Both the position numbers and the translations under genes were made by a program. Below are positions 45,265-50,472 of a stretch of DNA of 64,000 nucleotides, one piece after another. The stretch is from an uncultured virus (IMG/VR IMGVR_UViG_3300010002_000006) (Duplodnaviria > Heunggongvirae > Uroviricota > Caudoviricetes), in the IMG/VR virus record IMGVR_UViG_3300010002_000006, positions 124,001 through 188,000 of that record. One strand, given 5' to 3'. The first letter of the stretch is position 1, and each line of letters starts with the position of its first letter. The notes beneath the pieces are model-generated. The model had not been told where the DNA came from. It searched no databases and saw only the letters and a list, made by a program, of their open reading frames with translations.

Positions 45265-45878
45265 TAGATCTCGAAAATGTCGGAGAGCTTAACCGGACCG
45301 TTATCCCCGTGAATGGAAACGATCTGACCGTTCTTAATGACGCCATCATATTGTACAAAGCGACCGTTTTTCTCGACGGTGACTTCGAACAAGGCATCAT
45401 AAGTTTGAGTGTGGCGATGCGTGAAGGTCACTTTGTAACCATCACTGTATTGCAAATCATTGCCACTTTGCTCACATGCACGCTGCAATCTTCTCTTGAT
45501 ATCCTTCGCTGCCATCAAACCAACCACACTGTCCACAATGCGGCCAAGTAAGTTAAAACGCTCATTCATACTTTCAGTAATATAAAAATAGAAATCGTAT
45601 GATTTGAGCTCGCACAACAGGAATCGCAAAATCCCCTCTTTAGGACGGGTGTAAGCGATACGTCCTTTACTTTCAATCGCAAACGTGTACATTCTGATGT
45701 CACGGTTGACAATGAATTCGATGCACGCGACTTCGATGCCGTTCATGCTCATGTCTCGCAACGAACCAGGGTTGGCACGGGTTACGCGAACTGAGTTAAT
45801 GGTCAGGTACTCGCCGAGTTTGGTAGCGAACTCTGCACGAATCGCGTCTAAGTTCAGTGGTGTGGTTTCTAAGTTCAT
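45264..45878 (-). CDS. Hypothetical early protein
   Basis: 204 aa; first gene after promoter motif at 45924..45931. Confidence 0.7.
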   Translation of the reverse strand: MNLETTPLNLDAIRAEFATKLGEYLTINSVRVTRANPGSLRDMSMNGIEVACIEFIVNRDIRMYTFAIESKGRIAYTRPKEGILRFLLCELKSYDFYFYITESMNERFNLLGRIVDSVVGLMAAKDIKRRLQRACEQSGNDLQYSDGYKVTFTHRHTQTYDALFEVTVEKNGRFVQYDGVIKNGQIVSIHGDNGPVKLSDIFEI

Positions 45879-45913
45879 GGTGGATCCTCTAAATTAAAAT
45901 AACTGCGTTAAGT

Positions 45914-45942
45914 ATACACTGTGATAATATCGGCTTAATTAA
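45914..45942 (-). promoter_or_regulatory. Putative phage early promoter
   Basis: TTAAGCCGATATTATCACAGTGTA. Confidence 0.6.
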
Positions 45943-46643
45943 TTATAAGCTCTTTTATTTTATGTAATAAAACGCTTACTTATTTTCATCTCTGATGAGA
46001 TAAGAGACACTTGCTGTGGTGTCTCTGCTTTTTTATAAGCATTCTTACGAGTGTTTATAAAGAAGTATGTTCGCAACGTGCTTCTTGTGCCTTGGGCATG
46101 TAGTAGGGTTTTCATCATCGCTAACAAAGTGGAAGGGGTCCGCCAATCTCTTCCGCTTTCTTTAAAGGTATTCTTGCGAGTGTCTTTAAAGAAAGCATGG
46201 GGGCGTGCTTTCAATTCTGGCTAGCTGTTCTGTTGTACTAACTAAAAGGGAGTGAGTTGGTCTTACTTTTCCTCCACTCACTCGCCTTTTTATTTCTCTA
46301 TGTCTATTCCCTGAGTAGCTATAAAGAAATAACATTGCGCTCAATGCTGTTTCTGGATTTGTTATCATACTTGTATGGATTTGCCTTCTATTAGGCAGGG
46401 GTTCAACGACCCCTTCTTTCAATGCATATTAACCAATGTATATTGCAAGAATTTTCCTGTTGTAACTAGTAGGCTTTACCTGTTCCGAATCCATTCGGGG
46501 CGGCTAAAACTATTATGCTGTTTGTCGTAAAAGATTATTCAGATATTTATAGTCTGAGCAAAGTAGTCGCCTGCGGTAATTTCCCTCTCTTGTCCTTCGT
46601 GGAGGAAGAGCGAGATCCAGGAGGGAAAGCAACAAAGTTTTAT

Positions 46644-47192
46644 TCTCCCATAGTTCAGTTGGTAGAACGAGGTAAAGATCATGGCAATGAGGGATTTAAA
46701 GATCCTTTTCGATAGCATAGTCTCTGATCCTTCTTCGGGCTGCTGGAACTGGACTAAGAGTACTCGTGAAGGATATGGTCAAATCAAAGTTGGCGATATC
46801 CACTGGACGACACACCGTTATGCTGCAACAGCTATTTATGGTGAGATTCCGAAAGGGATGGTCGTTAGACATTCCTGTAATAACCGACGGTGCTGTAATC
46901 CTAATCACTTAAGCATCGGCAGTCACCAGGATAATTGGGAAGACTCTGAAGTAGTTCACAGAGAGAACACCGATAAGATGAGAAAGATGAGAGGTTGGAA
47001 CATAGACGGTGTCTGTTATCCATCTTCTCGAATCGCTCATCAGAAAACTGGCATTTCGATGGCGAGCTTAGTCAAGTATACTCAATCTGGTATATTCGAT
47101 ATAGAAACGTATCGGAAGAATTGCGAACGCCAGGGTAAAGTTCCCAAAGTCTGATCCGTATGTCGCAAGTTCGAGCCTTGCCGGGAGAGCCA
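46644..47192 (+). pseudogene. tRNA-Asn-derived gene split by an HNH endonuclease ORF (5' half 46644..46669, 3' half 47155..47192)
   Basis: TCTCCCA TA GTTC AGTTGGTA GAAC G ... TCCGT ATGTC GCAAG TTCGAGC CTTGC CGGGAGA GCCA. Closely parallels enterobacterial tRNA-Asn; anticodon loop and 5' anticodon strand are missing. Confidence 0.8.
46681..47154 (+). mobile_element. HNH homing endonuclease
   Basis: CWNW...GYG...THR...VRHSCNNRRCCNPNHL..GSHQDN (HNH_3/His-Cys type). Confidence 0.9.
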
Positions 47193-47194
47193 AA

Positions 47195-47295
47195 TTACAT
47201 TCACACGCAGTTGGGGTACAATAGACCAGGGGCGCTTTTGCGACCATACCTGGGATCCACTTCCCACCTACCAGCATAAGGACGTGTGGATGTAA
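47195..47295 (+). ncRNA. Structured ncRNA candidate
   Basis: 13-bp closing stem TTACATTCACACG/CGTGTGGATGTAA with nested CCAGG/CCTGG and CGC-TTTT-GCG; fills the gap between two tRNA genes. Confidence 0.55.
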
Positions 47296-47301
47296 CCTTT
47301 T

Positions 47302-47391
47302 AGAGAGTTGGATGAGCGGTTTAAGTCACCTCCCTGCTAAGGAGGCGTATCAGTAATGGTACCGAGGGTTCGAATCCCTCACTCTCTGCCA
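47302..47391 (+). tRNA. tRNA-Ser(GCT)
   Basis: AGAGAGT/ACTCTCT acceptor, CCTCC-CTGCTAA-GGAGG anticodon arm, long variable arm, GAGGG-TTCGAAT-CCCTC, encoded GCCA. Confidence 0.95.
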
Positions 47392-47394
47392 AAT

Positions 47395-47481
47395 ATCGGG
47401 ATAGTCTATTTAAACTTAGTGTCGGAATTCGACGGCGGATACGTCCGTAAGGCTATGTAGGTTCGAATCCTACTCCTGATA
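47395..47481 (+). ncRNA. tRNA-like RNA (acceptor + T arm, non-canonical core)
   Basis: ATCGGGA/TCCTGAT acceptor, GTAGG-TTCGAAT-CCTAC; internal hairpins GTCG/CGAC and GCGGA-TACG-TCCGT. Confidence 0.65.
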
Positions 47482-47489
47482 ATAAATAT

Positions 47490-47593
47490 GCGGTTATGTC
47501 TTTAGGGGCATCGTAAAGGTACGAAAGTGGATGATTAGTTTCTACCACTGGATAACTTTACAGTAGTCAGGTTAAATCCCTGTGGCCGCGCCA
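47490..47593 (+). ncRNA. tRNA-like RNA ending in CCA
   Basis: GCGGTTA/TGGCCGC-GCCA acceptor; variant T arm CAGG-TTAAATC-CCTG; three internal hairpins. Confidence 0.55.
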
Positions 47594-47602
47594 AATTTTT
47601 AT

Positions 47603-47740
47603 GGGGGTCGTGTCGTGGGACACAAGTTCGGTTATGCTCTAGCGATCGAAGATCGTGAACCCATTAGCGGTGAAGATAGACAACTCTACTTTAACTGTAC
47701 TGAACGATAAGCCGAGTTCGACTCTCGGGACTGTCTACTC
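47603..47740 (+). ncRNA. tRNA-like RNA candidate
   Basis: Perfect T arm CCGAG-TTCGACT-CTCGG; weak acceptor GGGGGTC/GACTGTC; hairpins GTGTC/GACAC and CGATC-GAA-GATCG. Confidence 0.4.
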
Positions 47741-47759
47741 ATTTCATAAGGAATAGGTT

Positions 47760-47897
47760 ATGGATTTTGATTTAGATGATTTAGAGATCACCGGTCTCGA
47801 TGAAGCTGAAGCGCGTAATACCGAGCGTCTGAACGAAGCGGATGCAGCTGCTGCGGCAATTGGCGATGAAGCCGACTGCGAAGGTTGTAAGATCTAA
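47760..47897 (+). CDS. 45-aa acidic peptide ending in a CxxC motif resembling the NrdA C-terminal tail
   Basis: MDFDLDDLEITGLDEAEARNTERLNEADAAAAAIGDEADCEGCKI; TAAGGA RBS; below the track cutoff. Confidence 0.75.
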   Translation: MDFDLDDLEITGLDEAEARNTERLNEADAAAAAIGDEADCEGCKI

Positions 47898-48003
47898 TTT
47901 TTACCTGTCAGTATGTTTTAAGATGGACCTGTTTTAGCAACACAAAAATAATGCATTGGCTGCCAGTTGGATAACCAGCGGTAGATCAAGGCAACACCCT
48001 CTT

Positions 48004-48081
48004 AGGCGGGTAGCTCAGTCTGGTAGAGCGCCGTGGGGTACACTCCCACACCTGTCCGTGGTTCGAATCCACGCTCGCCTA
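48004..48081 (+). tRNA. tRNA-like gene with aberrant anticodon arm (undetermined/pseudo-tRNA)
   Basis: Canonical acceptor AGGCGGG/CTCGCCT, D arm GCTC-AGTCTGGTA-GAGC and T arm CGTGG-TTCGAAT-CCACG; loop GTACACT lacks purine-37; no CCA. Confidence 0.65.
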
Positions 48082-48346
48082 AACTTTTTAATTCGTTAGC
48101 GGAGATTCCAAATGAGTATGGCTTACCCTTCAGAGTTTAAACACGCGCACTCCCAGCCTTGTATGGTCGTTGAAGTTCTCGTTCAACCTTCAACCATCTG
48201 CCAGGCATCTGTTTGTGATCAAGAGTCCAAAGCGGCTCCGTCATTAAACATTATGGGTAGTAGCATCGTGCCGTCGCAGTCTTGTAGCGACAGACTCAGA
48301 AGTTTTGGTATTTGATTGACACGGCTCTACTGTTTAGGAAACATGC

Positions 48347-48622
48347 ATGAAAATCGTTATTTACGGTCGACCTGGTTGCCCGTACTGCGTTAAAGCTCAC
48401 GATCTCTGCCAGGCCAAAGCCCTGGACTTCGAATACATCGATTATAAAGATGTAGGTCTAGAGAAAGCAGATCTGGAAAAGATCGTTGGCAAGCTGATCA
48501 CCACTGTTCCCCAGATTCTGGTTGACGGTGTTCCGATCGGCGGTTTCACCGAATTACAGCAATACCTTCTGGACCTACAAAGCGAAGATCCTCTGGATAC
48601 GGACGATCTCGGCGGCATTTAA
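48347..48622 (+). CDS. grxA: Glutaredoxin (Grx1-like)
   Basis: YGRPGCPYC, TVPQI, IGGFTEL. Confidence 0.93.
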   Translation: MKIVIYGRPGCPYCVKAHDLCQAKALDFEYIDYKDVGLEKADLEKIVGKLITTVPQILVDGVPIGGFTELQQYLLDLQSEDPLDTDDLGGI

Positions 48623-48642
48623 CTGACAACGGCGGTGAACCC

Positions 48643-48786
48643 ATGAAAATCAAGAAGAAAAGTATCTCTCTGAAAGAAAAGATTCGCCGCCTTAATCAGA
48701 ATGCAGAAAAACCGCTGTACCTGGATGGGGATGGTGATACTTTCACTATGACCAAAACCAAAGATGGGTACCGGCTAAACCAGTAG
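48643..48786 (+). CDS. 47-aa basic hypothetical protein
   Basis: MKIKKKSISLKEKIRRLNQ...; follows grx; below the track cutoff. Confidence 0.5.
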   Translation: MKIKKKSISLKEKIRRLNQNAEKPLYLDGDGDTFTMTKTKDGYRLNQ

Positions 48787-48843
48787 GGTCTCTGACCCTA
48801 TTGTATTTTTTTGTCTTCAACTACCGTATATTATGTAATTCAA

Positions 48844-49473
48844 TCGAATGTAGCTGTTTGCAGCCCTGAGGGGCGGCTTGGTTATGTTACCTCGTTATAT
48901 TCGACTGTAAGACCCTTGTTATCCAGGTGTGGGAATATAACAAGGGCAATACCCGGTAACTTGCAGTGCCGGGTTAAATCCAAGTAAGACCGGCGACCGT
49001 TATCTCGCTATCCGTTGAGCTTGGTGGGCAATGCAGTGAGCTGACCTCAGCTGCGTCATAGCAACGCGACTAAAGAGAAGTCCCCCTATCGTCTAAGCTT
49101 AAGACACCTCGACTTAATTGTTGGGGGAAATCTGAGATGAACCCGAAACACTCAATTGGGGGCAAATATAAAATATCTTTAGTAGTGGGAAAGTTGTGCC
49201 CTTTCCTGACAATAGTATGAAAATATTATTGTCAACCTCTTTGTACCGGTGGCTGATATCCAAGTAGAGCTTTAATTATACCTGACGGCATAGCGCTCAA
49301 AGTGAACAACCATTGGTACATCCTCTTGAGGGTCTTGAACGAGAACCGTAGACAGATCCACCGAGCGCAACTACGTCGCATATAAAGGTGGAATTAGCAG
49401 GGGACTAGCGAGTCATCCTGGGTGATATCAAGATCCTCAACCTTATCTACTCTCCGTGATATGGAGTGGATAC
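48844..49473 (+). ncRNA. Array of structured RNA modules, including a degenerate tRNA-like element at about 49080..49165
   Basis: No credible ORF; back-to-back 10-13 bp closing stems with G-U pairs (48844..48904, 48913..48946, 49207..49234, 49242..49320, 49326..49440). Confidence 0.5.
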
Positions 49474-49488
49474 TCTCCTGGTGGAGAA

Positions 49489-49585
49489 CGTCGTACCATC
49501 TGATGAGTCCTGCGACGGTAAAAAATAATGGGGACGAAACGGGTTCTGCAGAAGGGGTCTCCAAACTCTGAGCAGATCCGTCATG
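49489..49585 (+). ncRNA. Hammerhead ribozyme (type I topology, pseudoknotted)
   Basis: CTGATGA (49500..49506), stem II GTCC/GGAC, GAAAC, stem III ACGGG(T)TCTGC/GCAGATCCGT, GTC cleavage triplet (after C49582), stem I CAT/ATG, loop II TGCGACG pairing with 5' CGTCGTA. Confidence 0.8.
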
Positions 49586-49842
49586 AATCGCTCCGCCCTA
49601 ACTGTGAGGAGCAGCCTCAGTCTACGATTCTAGAGGAACAACAGCGTCGCCTGCAGGGGACCATTGGCAAATGGGATCTTAAGGTTGGCAAACAGTCCGC
49701 TCCTTTTGCCAGAGGAGAAGTTGTCAAAACCAAGAGGTGTAGACAGCCTTTAGACCACTGTAATGATGAATCGGGGTTGCTCCCGTAGTAACCACCACCA
49801 GTGATCTTTAGGGTGTTTACAAAAATAATAAATAGATAGAGA

Positions 49843-49872
49843 CCCTCTACTCTCCGTTAGGAGAGTAGAGGG
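49843..49872. terminator. Terminator hairpin (CTCTACTC family) closing the RNA island
   Basis: CCCTCTACTCTCC/GGAGAGTAGAGGG; T-rich runs on both strands. Confidence 0.8.
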
Positions 49873-49883
49873 AATCTTTTTTA

Positions 49884-50282
49884 TTAGTTTTCTAAAGTCA
49901 GTTCATGCCAGACTTTATACAGACGATCCATGTCATTATACAGTTTACCTAATGCTACTGTATTTTTCAGATTACCTGCGTAACACCAGAGTTCGCATTT
50001 AGGCTCGCCCTTCAGTATAATGTCGTTGAAATACATCACGACGGATTTAGCTGAGGTTGCAATCAAATCTTTGCGGTTAACCGCAAAAGGAAACTCGTTA
50101 GAATCATCGATCACGTTGCAGCAGTAAATAAATAATGCTGCATCGAAGTCGTTAATATCGAACCCATGTTCTTCGATCAAGCCGAACCGACGGGTTTCAA
50201 TTGCGGAGCTAACCACATCTAACTTAACCAGAGATCCATCAGCAGTGATCATTGACAGGTTACGTTTGAAAATATTTTCCAT
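49884..50282 (-). CDS. Hypothetical early protein
   Basis: Start MENIFK after GGAG; promoter motif at 50329..50336. Confidence 0.7.
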   Translation of the reverse strand: MENIFKRNLSMITADGSLVKLDVVSSAIETRRFGLIEEHGFDINDFDAALFIYCCNVIDDSNEFPFAVNRKDLIATSAKSVVMYFNDIILKGEPKCELWCYAGNLKNTVALGKLYNDMDRLYKVWHELTLEN

Positions 50283-50319
50283 GTTATTCTCCAATAGATT
50301 AAGAACATTATTGTTCATA

Positions 50320-50346
50320 TATACTTAAATGATATCGGTCTGAAAT
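50320..50346 (-). promoter_or_regulatory. Putative phage early promoter
   Basis: TTTCAGACCGATATCATTTAAGTA. Confidence 0.65.
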
Positions 50347-50472
50347 GGAATGTGACTAAACCATACTCTATTTGATCATATGAGCTCGTTTCATTCACAG
50401 CCAGGACGGTTGTTAATGAGACTCCTTTGCGGTCATTGTGACTCAGAGGCTATTTCGAAATAGAGGTAACAT

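What the first reader, a model, noticed from the sequence alone, without database searches (positions are those of the whole stretch)
46510..49872. Whole island as a system: a polycistronic, self- and host-processed ncRNA cassette
Seen: 3.3 kb on one strand with only one canonical tRNA, at least five tRNA-like shells, several closed-stem RNAs, a hammerhead, an HNH gene, a redox peptide/Grx pair and one strong closing terminator, in an otherwise densely coding genome. Inference: since the phage nucleus shields DNA but not cytoplasmic RNA, this may be an RNA-based counter-defence or translation-support module cut into units by tRNA-maturation enzymes and a ribozyme. The function is a hypothesis.
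Basis: inference. Interest (0 to 1): 0.75.

Follow-up and report, generated by a model that had tools for sequence, protein, structure and literature searches.

The report
Phage tRNA island, ribozyme-cut large RNA
This stretch of a giant phage genome is its tRNA island: a patchwork of one working tRNA, a tRNA gene broken by a selfish nuclease gene, several undescribed tRNA-shaped small RNAs, and a roughly 1,000-base folded RNA that carries a hammerhead ribozyme placed to cut it in two; what these RNAs do is unknown.

Summary
Confirmed on the + strand: one canonical tRNA-Ser(GCU); five tRNA-like RNAs; a conserved closed-stem RNA; an HNH gene; a glutaredoxin with a CxxC partner peptide; a hammerhead; and a strong terminator at 49843-49872.

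Corrected: a second terminator-like site (48781-48803), followed by an early-promoter-like ATATTAT motif, splits the island into at least two units. The parts are also gained, lost and reordered independently among relatives. It is a mosaic tRNA island, like the T4 tRNA region with RNAC, RNAD and SegB, not one co-inherited machine.

The HNH gene is a homing endonuclease sitting in the anticodon arm of a tRNA-Asn gene; a relative keeps the intact, uninterrupted tRNA.

The main result is at 48.83-49.88 kb. This is a non-coding, heavily base-paired RNA of about 1,050 nt, found at the same locus in the window, nine named Chimalliviridae phages and several unnamed contigs. It is annotated in none of them and matches no Rfam family.

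A type I hammerhead with a 6-bp stem I/loop II pseudoknot should cut it after C49582, giving RNAs of about 745 and 300 nt. Nine aligned sequences support this fold by covariation. Cleavage, expression and function are untested. GOLLD and ROOL are the closest analogues.

The parts
46644..46674 (+). 5' remnant of a tRNA-Asn gene (acceptor 5' strand and D arm); its end supplies the ribosome-binding site of the HNH gene
   Evidence: ARAGORN with introns allowed. The same 5' half precedes the HNH gene in L011, L009 and N1M2. L010 has the intact tRNA-Asn.
46681..47154 (+). HNH homing-endonuclease gene (157 aa), replacing about 12 nt of the anticodon stem-loop of tRNA-Asn
   Evidence: Pfam HNH_3 4.2e-13. 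Presence/absence at the same tRNA site among relatives.
47155..47192 (+). 3' remnant of the tRNA-Asn gene (anticodon-stem 3' strand, variable loop, T arm, acceptor 3' strand, GCCA)
   Evidence: 6 of 7 acceptor pairs form with the 5' remnant in the ARAGORN drawing; comparison with intact tRNA-Asn genes.
47194..47293 (+). Small RNA 'a': a long closing stem around a nearly invariant core; not tRNA-like
   Evidence: 22 predicted pairs, 4 compensatory, in 6 sequences. Matches in 4 named phages, unannotated in all.
47302..47391 (+). tRNA-Ser(GCU), canonical, with encoded CCA
   Evidence: ARAGORN; Rfam tRNA 52.1 bits.
47395..47481 (+). Small RNA 'c': tRNA-like (acceptor stem and T arm) with a 4-nt UACG loop where the anticodon loop should be
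   Evidence: Rfam tRNA 31.5 bits. 87-93% identical in N1M2, SXP01 and Moabite, and about 80% in T4-like Klebsiella phages, where it lies between tRNA-Leu and tRNA-Thr.
47490..47593 (+). Small RNA 'b': cloverleaf-like, with encoded GCCA and a 16-bp central arm capped by an invariant 14-nt loop
   Evidence: 35 pairs, 18 compensatory, in 6 sequences. Unannotated in 4 named phages. A short form without the central arm occurs in pEt-SU.
47603..47741 (+). Small RNA 'd': acceptor stem and T arm framing a branched core of about 90 nt
   Evidence: 46 pairs, 10 compensatory, in 5 sequences. 89% identical in pEt-SU, unannotated there.
47760..47897 (+). p45: acidic 45-aa peptide ending in DCEGCKI, partner of the glutaredoxin
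   Evidence: Conserved in 5 loci; fused in frame to Grx in Survivor. No Pfam or PDB hit.
48003..48082 (+). Lineage-specific degenerate tRNA-like gene (anticodon ACA, extra bases between the D and anticodon stems)
   Evidence: ARAGORN only. No Rfam tRNA hit at E<=10. Only one weak phage match.
48347..48622 (+). Glutaredoxin gene (91 aa, CPYC)
   Evidence: Pfam Glutaredoxin 2.3e-10. Present in all 8 related loci tested.
48643..48786 (+). p47: conserved 47-aa protein of unknown function
   Evidence: 76-88% identical in 4 loci.
48781..48813 (+). Internal intrinsic-terminator-like hairpin and T run that ends the tRNA/Grx unit
   Evidence: 10 pairs followed by TATTTTTTTG.
48828..48834 (+). ATATTAT core of an early-promoter-like motif upstream of the large RNA
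   Evidence: The flanking block is invariant in 5 genomes. The genome carries the recurrent motif. It fits the published predicted early-promoter consensus of N1M2 and OBP (PMC7058600 passages).
48838..49582 (+). Large structured RNA, 5' product (about 745 nt), which keeps the hammerhead core at its 3' end
   Evidence: No codon periodicity and at least 15 stops in every frame. No Rfam family.
49489..49586 (+). Type I hammerhead: pseudoknot strand 49489-49494, stem I 49496-49499 with 49583-49586, core CUGAUGA 49500-49506, predicted cut after C49582
   Evidence: 92.3% of cells paired, 11 of 23 pairs changed on both sides, 0 of 500 shuffles as high.
49583..49842 (+). 3' structured RNA domain (about 260 nt), released with a 5'-OH if the ribozyme cuts
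   Evidence: Helices 25-34. Present in the window, L001, L009-L011, L002, L025, L034 and Kc263; absent in L003, L004 and L005.
49843..49882 (+). Closing terminator (13-bp hairpin and T run); also faces the convergent minus-strand gene 49884-50318
   Evidence: The homologous N1M2 hairpin is listed as a predicted terminator in the supplement of PMC7058600.

Best explanation
The stretch is the phage's tRNA island, a mosaic of independently inherited genes in at least two transcription units, not one machine.

Unit 1 runs to the terminator at about 48.80 kb. It holds the remains of a tRNA-Asn gene whose anticodon arm was replaced by an HNH homing-endonuclease gene, and one working tRNA-Ser(GCU). 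It also holds four conserved small-RNA families: one closed hairpin type, and three built on a tRNA acceptor-stem/T-arm frame with no anticodon loop. A lineage-specific degenerate tRNA and small protein genes follow, including a glutaredoxin and its CxxC partner peptide. By inference from the T4 tRNA cluster, RNase P and the 3' tRNA-trimming enzymes cut out the tRNA-framed RNAs as stable small RNAs.

Unit 2 (48.83-49.88 kb) is a non-coding transcript of about 1,050 nt with an early-type promoter motif. It folds into about 36 helices. A built-in type I hammerhead, held by a 6-bp stem I/loop II pseudoknot, is predicted to cut it after C49582. The products would be a 5' RNA of about 745 nt ending in a 2',3'-cyclic phosphate and a 3' RNA of about 300 nt starting with a 5'-OH. 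In relatives that lack the 3' domain, the same ribozyme would only remove the terminator hairpin. Its conserved job is therefore 3'-end maturation of the large RNA.

Shown here: the anatomy, the conservation and the covariation. Inferred: transcription, processing, RNA stability and any function. The most likely role is stable cytoplasmic RNAs acting on host RNA or translation machinery, as is also suspected but unproven for GOLLD and ROOL.
For: Large RNA. It lies at the same locus, between the Grx/tRNA genes and the DUF7484 virion gene, in AH04, N1M2, SXP01, Survivor, pEt-SU and Kc263. BLAST also finds it in Yubaba, Sureiya and OBP. It is present in unnamed loci L009-L011, L025 and L034. On the 5 close sequences, 95.7% of cells pair. 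46 of 245 pairs change on both sides, against 20.6+-3.1 in shuffles (0 of 500 as high) and 5-9 when partners are slid. Variable sites fall 98/92/99 over the three codon phases, and every frame has at least 15 stops.

Hammerhead. The core is invariant in the 11 sequences read. Only the free position N7 varies: U in 5, C in 6. Stems I, II and III and the pseudoknot all covary.

HNH. L010 has the intact tRNA-Asn without the gene. L011 and N1M2 have the old 5' half, the HNH gene and a different whole tRNA-Asn. L009 has a decayed 3' half.

Mosaic. The order and content of the modules differ in every relative.

Two units. A terminator-like site at 48781-48803 is followed by an ATATTAT motif.

T4 parallel. 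The T4 tRNA cluster carries RNAC, RNAD and segB. The roles of RNAC and RNAD are unknown (PMC3014915 passage).
Against: There are no expression or cleavage data. Rfam scores the hammerhead below its cut-offs: 18.4 against 48.5 bits, and 23.7 against 34 on L011. The transcription start and the strength of the internal terminator are unknown, so read-through from unit 1 is possible. In relatives no strong terminator separates the units. With the distant members included, RNAalifold recovers only 27 pairs of the 5' domain. The alignments are small (5-9 related sequences), and the tool warns that relatedness alone can beat the shuffles. The structure tested was derived from those same sequences. 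The consensus fold of element c failed because of an alignment offset. The ACA tRNA-like gene and the 46.5-46.64 kb hairpin are not conserved.
Confidence: 0.62

Rival explanations
1. One reading: the whole 3.3 kb is one polycistronic RNA operon. tRNA-maturation enzymes and the ribozyme cut it into units, and it works as an RNA-based counter-defence or translation-support module for a nucleus-forming phage.
For: Every part lies on the + strand. Three small RNAs are framed by tRNA acceptor and T arms. A tRNA-Met directly abuts the large RNA in N1M2 and L034. The scan finds no strong terminator between the units in three relatives. The overall order (tRNA/small RNAs, Grx, large RNA, DUF7484 gene) is kept across several Chimalliviridae genera. 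Phage tRNAs are known to counter tRNA-cleaving defences (PMC11464382 and PMC11555353; search listing and abstract starts only).
Against: The window has an internal terminator-like site and a promoter-like motif. The modules are gained, lost and reordered independently. Three or four of the genes encode proteins. No defence or counter-defence gene is linked to the island. Function was not tested.
Confidence: 0.2
2. The large RNA is a cis-acting untranslated region. It would be a long 3' UTR of the Grx operon or a leader for the downstream virion genes, with the hammerhead tuning mRNA stability, rather than a free-standing RNA.
For: In pEt-SU the RNA starts right after the Grx stop codon. Hammerheads between phage genes have been proposed to process long transcripts (PMC3088659 passages).
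Against: A strong hairpin terminator lies between the RNA and the DUF7484 gene in all members read. 600-750 nt of covarying structure is far more than known UTR elements need. The window group has its own promoter-like motif.
Confidence: 0.08
3. The tRNA-like elements and the 1-kb region are decaying pseudogenes, left over from tRNAs and a dead protein gene, and have no function.
For: The tRNA-Asn really is broken. The ACA tRNA-like gene is lineage-specific and odd. L009 shows a decayed 3' half.
Against: Elements a-d are 80-93% identical between genera that otherwise share almost no DNA similarity here. They keep their helices through compensatory changes. The large RNA shows 46 pairs changed on both sides and invariant ribozyme core bases.
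Confidence: 0.05
4. The 1-kb region encodes one or more small proteins, for example the 86-codon ORF at 49528-49788.
For: An 86-aa ORF exists. Kc263 and N1M2 carry annotated 'hypothetical protein' CDSs over parts of the region.
Against: There is no three-base periodicity of substitutions (98/92/99), and every frame has at least 15 stops in all 5 sequences. Indels are not multiples of three. No Pfam hit. AH04, SXP01, Survivor and pEt-SU annotate nothing there.
Confidence: 0.03

Closest known systems
Type I hammerhead ribozymes with a stem I/stem II pseudoknot, common in phages and prophages (Perreault et al. 2011, PMC3088659; passages read)
   Same: The full catalytic core, three covarying stems, a 6-bp pseudoknot joining the 5' flank of stem I to loop II, and a phage intergenic context.
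   Different: It scores below Rfam's gathering thresholds. Stem I is only 3-4 bp and stem III carries an insert of about 30 nt. It sits inside a large structured RNA, not between protein genes. Cleavage is untested.
GOLLD and ROOL large ornate RNAs of phages and prophages (PMC5737381; bioRxiv 10.1101/2024.12.08.627333; passages read)
   Same: Hundreds of nucleotides of covarying multi-helix structure. Phage-encoded and located beside tRNA islands. One GOLLD example lies downstream of a tRNA-Met, as this RNA does in N1M2 and L034. Function unknown.
   Different: No match to any Rfam model, GOLLD and ROOL included, at E<=10 on the window or E<=1 on 9 related loci. It has an integral hammerhead that splits it in two. 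It was found here only in an OBP-like group of Chimalliviridae. Cage formation is unknown.
The bacteriophage T4 tRNA region: eight tRNAs, stable RNAs RNAC and RNAD, and the SegB homing endonuclease (PMC3014915 passage)
   Same: A tRNA cluster that also encodes small stable RNAs of unknown role and a homing-endonuclease gene.
   Different: No sequence similarity to RNAC or RNAD (0 blastn hits to L008). The nuclease is HNH, not GIY-YIG, and lies inside a tRNA gene. Element c does occur in T4-like Klebsiella phages.
Phage tRNAs that neutralise tRNA-cleaving defences such as PARIS and retron effectors (PMC11464382, PMC11555353; search listing and abstract starts only)
   Same: tRNA-shaped phage RNAs made in the host cytoplasm.
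   Different: Elements b, c and d have no 7-nt anticodon loop, so they cannot replace a cleaved tRNA. A decoy role is speculation.

Membership tests
Hammerhead ribozyme, type I | Catalytic core: C3 U4 G5 A6 N7 G8 A9, G12 A13 A14, the A15.1-U16.1 pair, and H17 at the cleavage site | tested here: met
   Invariant in the 11 sequences read. Only N7 varies: U in 5, C in 6. GUC lies before the cut, after window 49582.
Hammerhead ribozyme, type I | Three helices around the core, with stem I open-ended | tested here: met
   Stem I: all 4 pairs change on both sides. Stem II: 91.7% of cells paired, 1 compensatory pair. Stem III: 92.6% paired, 4 compensatory pairs.
Hammerhead ribozyme, type I | [quoted passage not shown] | tested here: met
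   A 6-bp pseudoknot with 100% of cells paired; 2 pairs change on both sides and 1 on one side. Its sequence is entirely different in L025.
Hammerhead ribozyme, type I | Score at or above the Rfam gathering threshold | tested here: not met
   Hammerhead_3: 18.4 against 48.5 bits on the window. Hammerhead_1: 23.7 against 34 on L011. No hit at E<=1 on L001-L006.
Hammerhead ribozyme, type I | Site-specific self-cleavage | not testable with these tools
   Needs in-vitro transcription or end-specific RNA-seq.
Decoding tRNA (elements b, c, d) | Acceptor stem and T arm | tested here: met
   Element c: Rfam tRNA 31.5 bits against 29. Elements b and d: covarying acceptor and T stems.
Decoding tRNA (elements b, c, d) | A 7-nt anticodon loop on a 5-bp stem | tested here: not met
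   Element c has a 4-nt UACG loop. Element b has an invariant 14-nt loop on a 16-bp arm. Element d has a branched core. Neither b nor d hits Rfam tRNA at E<=10.
GOLLD / ROOL | Match to the family covariance model | tested here: not met
   No hit on the window at E<=10, nor on L001-L006 and L009-L011 at E<=1.
GOLLD / ROOL | A large covarying multi-helix RNA in phages beside tRNA islands | tested here: met
   The context statement for GOLLD and ROOL comes from passages read.
GOLLD / ROOL | An RNA-only homo-oligomeric cage | not testable with these tools
   Needs cryo-EM or native gels.
Group I intron in a tRNA anticodon loop | A ribozyme core (P3-P9) within the insert, and exons that restore a tRNA | tested here: not met
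   The ORF fills 474 nt of the roughly 480-nt insert. No intron family at E<=10. The anticodon-stem 5' strand and the loop are missing from both flanks.
HNH homing endonuclease | An HNH nuclease domain, and presence/absence of the gene at one conserved target among relatives | tested here: met
   Pfam HNH_3 4.2e-13. L010 has the uninterrupted tRNA-Asn. L011, L009, N1M2 and the window are occupied, all with the same 5' junction. Cleavage specificity not tested.
YrlA / Y RNA with Ro protein | Match to the covariance model, and a TROVE (Ro) protein in the genome | tested here: not met
   YrlA 20.8 against 69 bits, E 0.61. No TROVE match in the genome.
T4 RNAC / RNAD | Sequence similarity to the T4 RNAs | tested here: not met
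   No blastn hit of window 45801-50400 to L008 at E<1e-4. Only the genomic context is alike.

The most novel reading that the evidence does not exclude
The hammerhead-divided transcript of about 1 kb is a new class of ornate phage RNA that yields two stable RNAs. Together with the anticodon-less, tRNA-framed small RNAs, it would act in the host cytoplasm, outside the phage nucleus, as an RNA-only toolkit: a cage, sponge or decoy for host translation, RNA-repair or tRNA-cleaving defence factors.
Probability: 0.2. Interest if true: 0.85.

Novelty: new variant of a known kind. Interest (0 to 1): 0.65.

Why it matters
Large, intricately folded RNAs are rare in bacteria and phages, and the known ones (GOLLD, ROOL) still have no function. 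This locus adds a distinct family with a built-in ribozyme, in phages that can be grown (AH04, N1M2, OBP, pEt-SU and others). Processing, abundance, assembly and deletion phenotypes are therefore directly testable.

It also adds four unannotated small-RNA families. Three use a tRNA frame without an anticodon, and one of these is shared between jumbo phages and T4-like phages. This revives the 50-year-old question of what the non-tRNA RNAs in phage tRNA clusters do.

For annotation, it shows that the 'empty' kilobase beside the tRNAs of these phages is a gene. Two database CDSs laid over it are probably wrong.

Tried and rejected
- Group I intron for the HNH insert: rejected. There is no room for a ribozyme core and no Rfam hit.
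- ARAGORN's 'tRNA-Gly(CCC) with a 466-nt intron': rejected. Its anticodon stem is poor, and relatives show that the gene is tRNA-Asn.
- YrlA/Ro: rejected.
- Coding potential of the 1-kb region: rejected.
- GOLLD or ROOL membership: no model match.
- Genome-wide promoter role for the three TWTAAAGAA repeats at 46.03-46.33 kb: in that sequence context they occur only here.
- TATATTAY as the promoter word: too rare, 9 sites. ATATTAT in its wider context fits better.
- Exact-pattern scans of IMG/VR for elements a and b returned only contigs already in hand.
- The scan for element c gave 9 stretches: 5 real, 4 chance.
- The hammerhead pattern scan gave 6 viral stretches (5 in this family), 9 metagenome stretches (2 in this family) and 7 bacterial-genome stretches (0 in this family).
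- RNAalifold on element c failed because the two subgroups are offset by one column.
- p45 against PDB sequences: no hit at E<=10.
- The genome has no ribonucleotide reductase large subunit. My recalled likeness of the p45 C-terminus to the NrdA tail remains an untested lead.
- The scan's earlier notes hold no look-alike of this RNA by sequence.
I obtained the boundaries instead by BLAST from window coordinates, so they are approximate to a few bases.

Full report
WHAT THE WINDOW IS. The window lies in a complete 260,738-bp virus record with terminal repeats. The nearest named relative is Erwinia phage AH04, genus Meadowvirus, family Chimalliviridae. Other named phages share parts of the locus: Klebsiella N1M2, Shewanella SXP01, Pantoea Survivor, Edwardsiella pEt-SU, Serratia Moabite and Kosakonia Kc263. 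Most of their genera are listed under Chimalliviridae. I did not test for the nucleus-shell gene itself.

CHECKING THE OBSERVATION. ARAGORN finds two tRNA genes in the window and none elsewhere in the genome: tRNA-Ser(GCU) at 47302-47391 and an odd 'tRNA-Cys(ACA)' at 48003-48082. Rfam confirms the first at 52.1 bits. It also calls a second tRNA-like match at 47395-47481 at 31.5 bits, against a cut-off of 29. The HNH gene (46681-47154; HNH_3, 4e-13) and the glutaredoxin (48347-48622) are real. The consensus scan finds the strong closing terminator at 49843-49872. It also finds a second + strand terminator-like site inside the island at 48781-48803, and a third at 46003-46026 just upstream. So 'one closing terminator' is wrong; the rest of the inventory holds up, as set out below.

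THE HNH GENE AND THE SPLIT tRNA. A tRNA 5' half (46644-46674) directly precedes the HNH start codon, and a 3' half (47155-47192) directly follows its stop codon. The two halves form 6 of 7 acceptor pairs. ARAGORN's model of a tRNA-Gly with a 466-nt intron is not credible. Relatives show that the gene is tRNA-Asn(GUU) and that about 12 nt, the 5' strand of the anticodon stem plus the loop, are replaced by the ORF and its ribosome-binding site.
- L010 has the intact tRNA-Asn and no HNH gene.
- L011 and N1M2 have the same old 5' half, then the HNH gene, then a different but complete tRNA-Asn.
- L009 has the 5' half, the HNH gene and a decayed 3' half, and ARAGORN finds no tRNA there.
The ORF fills 474 nt of the roughly 480-nt insert, and no intron family matches. 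This is therefore a free-standing homing endonuclease lodged in a tRNA gene, not a self-splicing intron. In the window the tRNA-Asn is most likely dead.

FOUR SMALL-RNA FAMILIES. Four conserved, unannotated elements lie between and after the tRNAs.
- Element a (about 47194-47293) has a long closing stem whose sequence differs completely between phages, around a nearly invariant core. It has 22 predicted pairs, 4 of them compensatory, in 6 sequences, and matches 4 named phages.
- Element c (47395-47481) has an acceptor stem and a T arm, but a 4-nt UACG loop where the anticodon loop should be. It is 87-93% identical in N1M2, SXP01 and Moabite. It recurs at about 80% identity in T4-like Klebsiella phages, between tRNA-Leu and tRNA-Thr. 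Of 9 IMG/VR pattern matches, 5 were real and 4 were chance.
- Element b (47490-47593) is a cloverleaf with encoded GCCA. Its central arm is 16 bp long and is capped by an invariant 14-nt loop. It has 35 pairs, 18 of them compensatory, in 6 sequences. pEt-SU carries a short form without the central arm.
- Element d (47603-47741) has an acceptor stem and a T arm around a branched core. It has 46 pairs, 10 of them compensatory, in 5 sequences.
The 'tRNA-Cys(ACA)' has two extra bases between the D and anticodon stems and a pyrimidine at position 37. It has no Rfam tRNA hit at E<=10 and no homologue beyond one weak tRNA-Trp match.

A MOSAIC, NOT A UNIT. The order and content of these modules differ in every genome.
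- Window: broken Asn with HNH, a, Ser, c, b, d.
- AH04: Cys, b, a.
- N1M2: HNH, Asn, a, b, c, Arg.
- Survivor: Asn, Ser, a, d, b.
- SXP01: Asn, Ser, an ORF, c, b, Cys.
- pEt-SU: Tyr, a, short b, d.
- Moabite: Tyr, Ser, then c further on.
- L010: Asn, b, d.
- L011: HNH, Asn, Ser, d.
- L009: HNH, a.
The modules behave like individual tRNA genes in an array. The closest classical parallel is the T4 tRNA region, which holds eight tRNAs, the stable RNAs RNAC and RNAD, and the SegB homing endonuclease. The roles of those two RNAs are still unknown (PMC3014915 passage). There is no sequence similarity to them.

THE PROTEIN GENES. The 45-aa acidic peptide ending in DCEGCKI is conserved in five loci. 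In Survivor it is fused in frame to the glutaredoxin, so the 'redox peptide/Grx pair' is a genuine functional pairing. A 47-aa protein is also conserved. The 67-aa ORF at 48112-48315 has no homologue in any fetched locus. These genes have no evident link to RNA.

THE LARGE RNA. From 48826 to about 49823 the window is 74-79% identical to gene-free DNA in AH04 and L009, and in part to L010 and L011.
- It is not coding. Variable sites fall 98/92/99 over the three codon phases, and every frame has at least 15 stops in all five sequences.
- It is structured. RNAalifold predicts 245 pairs in 36 helices. On that structure 95.7% of cells pair. 46 pairs change on both sides, against 20.6+-3.1 in shuffles (0 of 500 as high) and 5-9 when partners are slid. 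Two caveats apply: the structure was derived from the same five related sequences, and the tool warns that relatedness inflates such tests.
- More distant members lie at the same place, between the Grx/tRNA genes and the DUF7484 virion gene, in N1M2, SXP01, Survivor, pEt-SU and Kc263. BLAST with the N1M2 copy adds Serratia phages Yubaba and Sureiya (100% coverage, about 90% identity) and Pseudomonas phage OBP. Unnamed loci L025 and L034 also carry it.
- With the distant members added, RNAalifold recovers only 27 pairs of the 5' domain, 14 of them compensatory, because the alignment is poor.
- No Rfam family matches at E<=10 on the window, or at E<=1 on nine related loci. GenBank annotates nothing there, except a minus-strand hypothetical CDS in N1M2 and a short hypothetical CDS in Kc263.
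- Three full-text searches listed no paper describing it. This does not cover subscription journals.

THE HAMMERHEAD. All 11 sequences read carry CUGANGA, a short stem II, GAAAC, a long stem III and GUC. Only N7, the one free core position, varies: U in 5 and C in 6. On the nine-sequence alignment A3 I wrote a type I structure with a pseudoknot and counted pairs.
- 92.3% of cells pair, against 23-49% when partners are slid.
- 11 of 23 pairs change on both sides, and 0 of 500 shuffles score as high.
- All four stem I pairs covary.
- The 6-bp pseudoknot, between the 5' flank of stem I and loop II, pairs in 100% of cells.
Such pseudoknots were reported to stabilise about 40% of natural hammerheads, many of them in phage contexts (PMC3088659 passages). 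Rfam scores stay below threshold (18.4 and 23.7 bits), probably because stem I is short and the loops are long.
The predicted cut is after C49582. Distances from the aligned start to the cut are 601-747 nt across the family. In SXP01, Survivor and pEt-SU only a short spacer and the terminator hairpin follow the cut. In the window, AH04, L009-L011, N1M2, L025, L034 and Kc263 a conserved, covarying domain of about 260 nt lies between the cut and the terminator. The conserved job of the ribozyme is therefore to make the 3' end of the large RNA. In most members it would also release a second structured RNA.

ONE TRANSCRIPT OR TWO? In the window group the large RNA is preceded by the terminator-like hairpin at 48781-48803 and by a block that is invariant in five genomes and contains ATATTAT. 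The genome carries about 20 sites of a recurrent motif (TTTCAAR, a few bases, GATATTAT, then GTGTA), mostly on the minus strand. This matches the predicted early-promoter consensus published for N1M2 and OBP (PMC7058600 passages). Early promoters of such phages are AT-rich motifs centred near -10 (PMC7598289 passage). The site before the RNA fits the core, but its spacing differs from the consensus.
In N1M2 and L034 a tRNA-Met ends immediately before the RNA. In pEt-SU the RNA starts right after the Grx stop codon. The scan finds no strong terminator between the units in three relatives. The N1M2 supplement lists the hairpin after the RNA as a predicted terminator. My term searches of its promoter table returned no promoter inside the tRNA-to-RNA stretch; I searched by terms and did not read the whole table. 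Co-transcription with tRNA-type processing at the 5' end is thus plausible in relatives. The window looks like two units. None of this is shown by RNA data.

COMPARISON WITH KNOWN SYSTEMS AND VERDICT. The hammerhead is a new member of a known class. The large RNA works like, and sits like, GOLLD and ROOL: large, ornate, phage-borne, beside tRNA islands, in one GOLLD case downstream of a tRNA-Met (passages). It fails their model-based membership test and differs in having an internal ribozyme. The small RNAs parallel T4 RNAC and RNAD in context only.
Earlier notes of this scan (unchecked AI notes) report hammerhead-released folded RNAs and anticodon-less tRNA look-alikes in the tRNA arrays of other jumbo and T5-like phages. 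None resembles this RNA by sequence. I treat them as a sign that the arrangement is recurrent, not as evidence.
The defensible statement is a mosaic tRNA island that contains several undescribed RNA families, the most striking being a ribozyme-divided RNA of about 1 kb. Function is unknown.

Noticed in passing
window 46027-46420: Three tandem units of about 130 nt. Each starts with a shared motif (ATTCTTRCGAGTGTYTWTAAAGAA), followed by a hairpin, and ends in a terminator-like hairpin with a T run. In this sequence context the motif occurs only here in the genome. AH04 is 68% identical over 45898-46293. They may be three tiny transcription units or promoters for the tRNA unit.
   Followed up: partly
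window 47760-47897; L004 3973-4467: The 45-aa peptide ending in DCEGCKI is fused to the glutaredoxin in Pantoea phage Survivor, where the tail reads DCKDGCAV. From memory, the tail resembles the redox-shuttle C-terminus of class Ia ribonucleotide reductase NrdA. The genome has no RNR large subunit and PDB sequences give no hit.
   Followed up: partly
window 45930 (minus strand) and about 20 other genome sites: A recurrent motif (TTTCAAR, a few bases, GATATTAT, then GTGTA), mostly on the minus strand. It matches the published predicted early promoter of N1M2 and OBP. The site at 45930 would drive the leftward operon, divergent from the island.
   Followed up: partly
L002 4344-4856 (minus strand); L046 3008-3199: Database 'hypothetical protein' CDSs in N1M2 (gp252) and Kc263 (gp258) lie over the large structured RNA. 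They are probably mis-annotations.
   Followed up: no
window 47531-47566 and homologues: The invariant loop of element b begins an 11-codon AUG-to-UAG frame that stays open in the four copies I read by eye. Most of it is invariant RNA sequence, so this is probably coincidence.
   Followed up: no
L001 4112-4197; L003 4253-4339: AH04 and SXP01 carry a tRNA-Cys(GCA) of 86-87 nt with a long variable arm, which is unusual for tRNA-Cys.
   Followed up: no
window 49821-49882; L001 10091-10151; L009 8949-9006: The closing terminator hairpin recurs after the thymidylate kinase gene a few kb downstream in relatives. Hairpins of the CCCTAC...GGGGTAGGG type are listed many times among the predicted terminators of N1M2. 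It appears to be a standard terminator of this phage group.
   Followed up: no
window 49884-50318 (minus strand): A 144-aa convergent gene with no Pfam hit. It is present in L011 (94% identity) and L010 (62%) but absent from AH04. It is a variable insertion next to the RNA's terminator.
   Followed up: no
L021, L027, L030 and others: The hammerhead pattern scans also picked up unrelated candidate hammerheads in other viral, metagenome and bacterial contigs. None carries the large RNA.
   Followed up: partly
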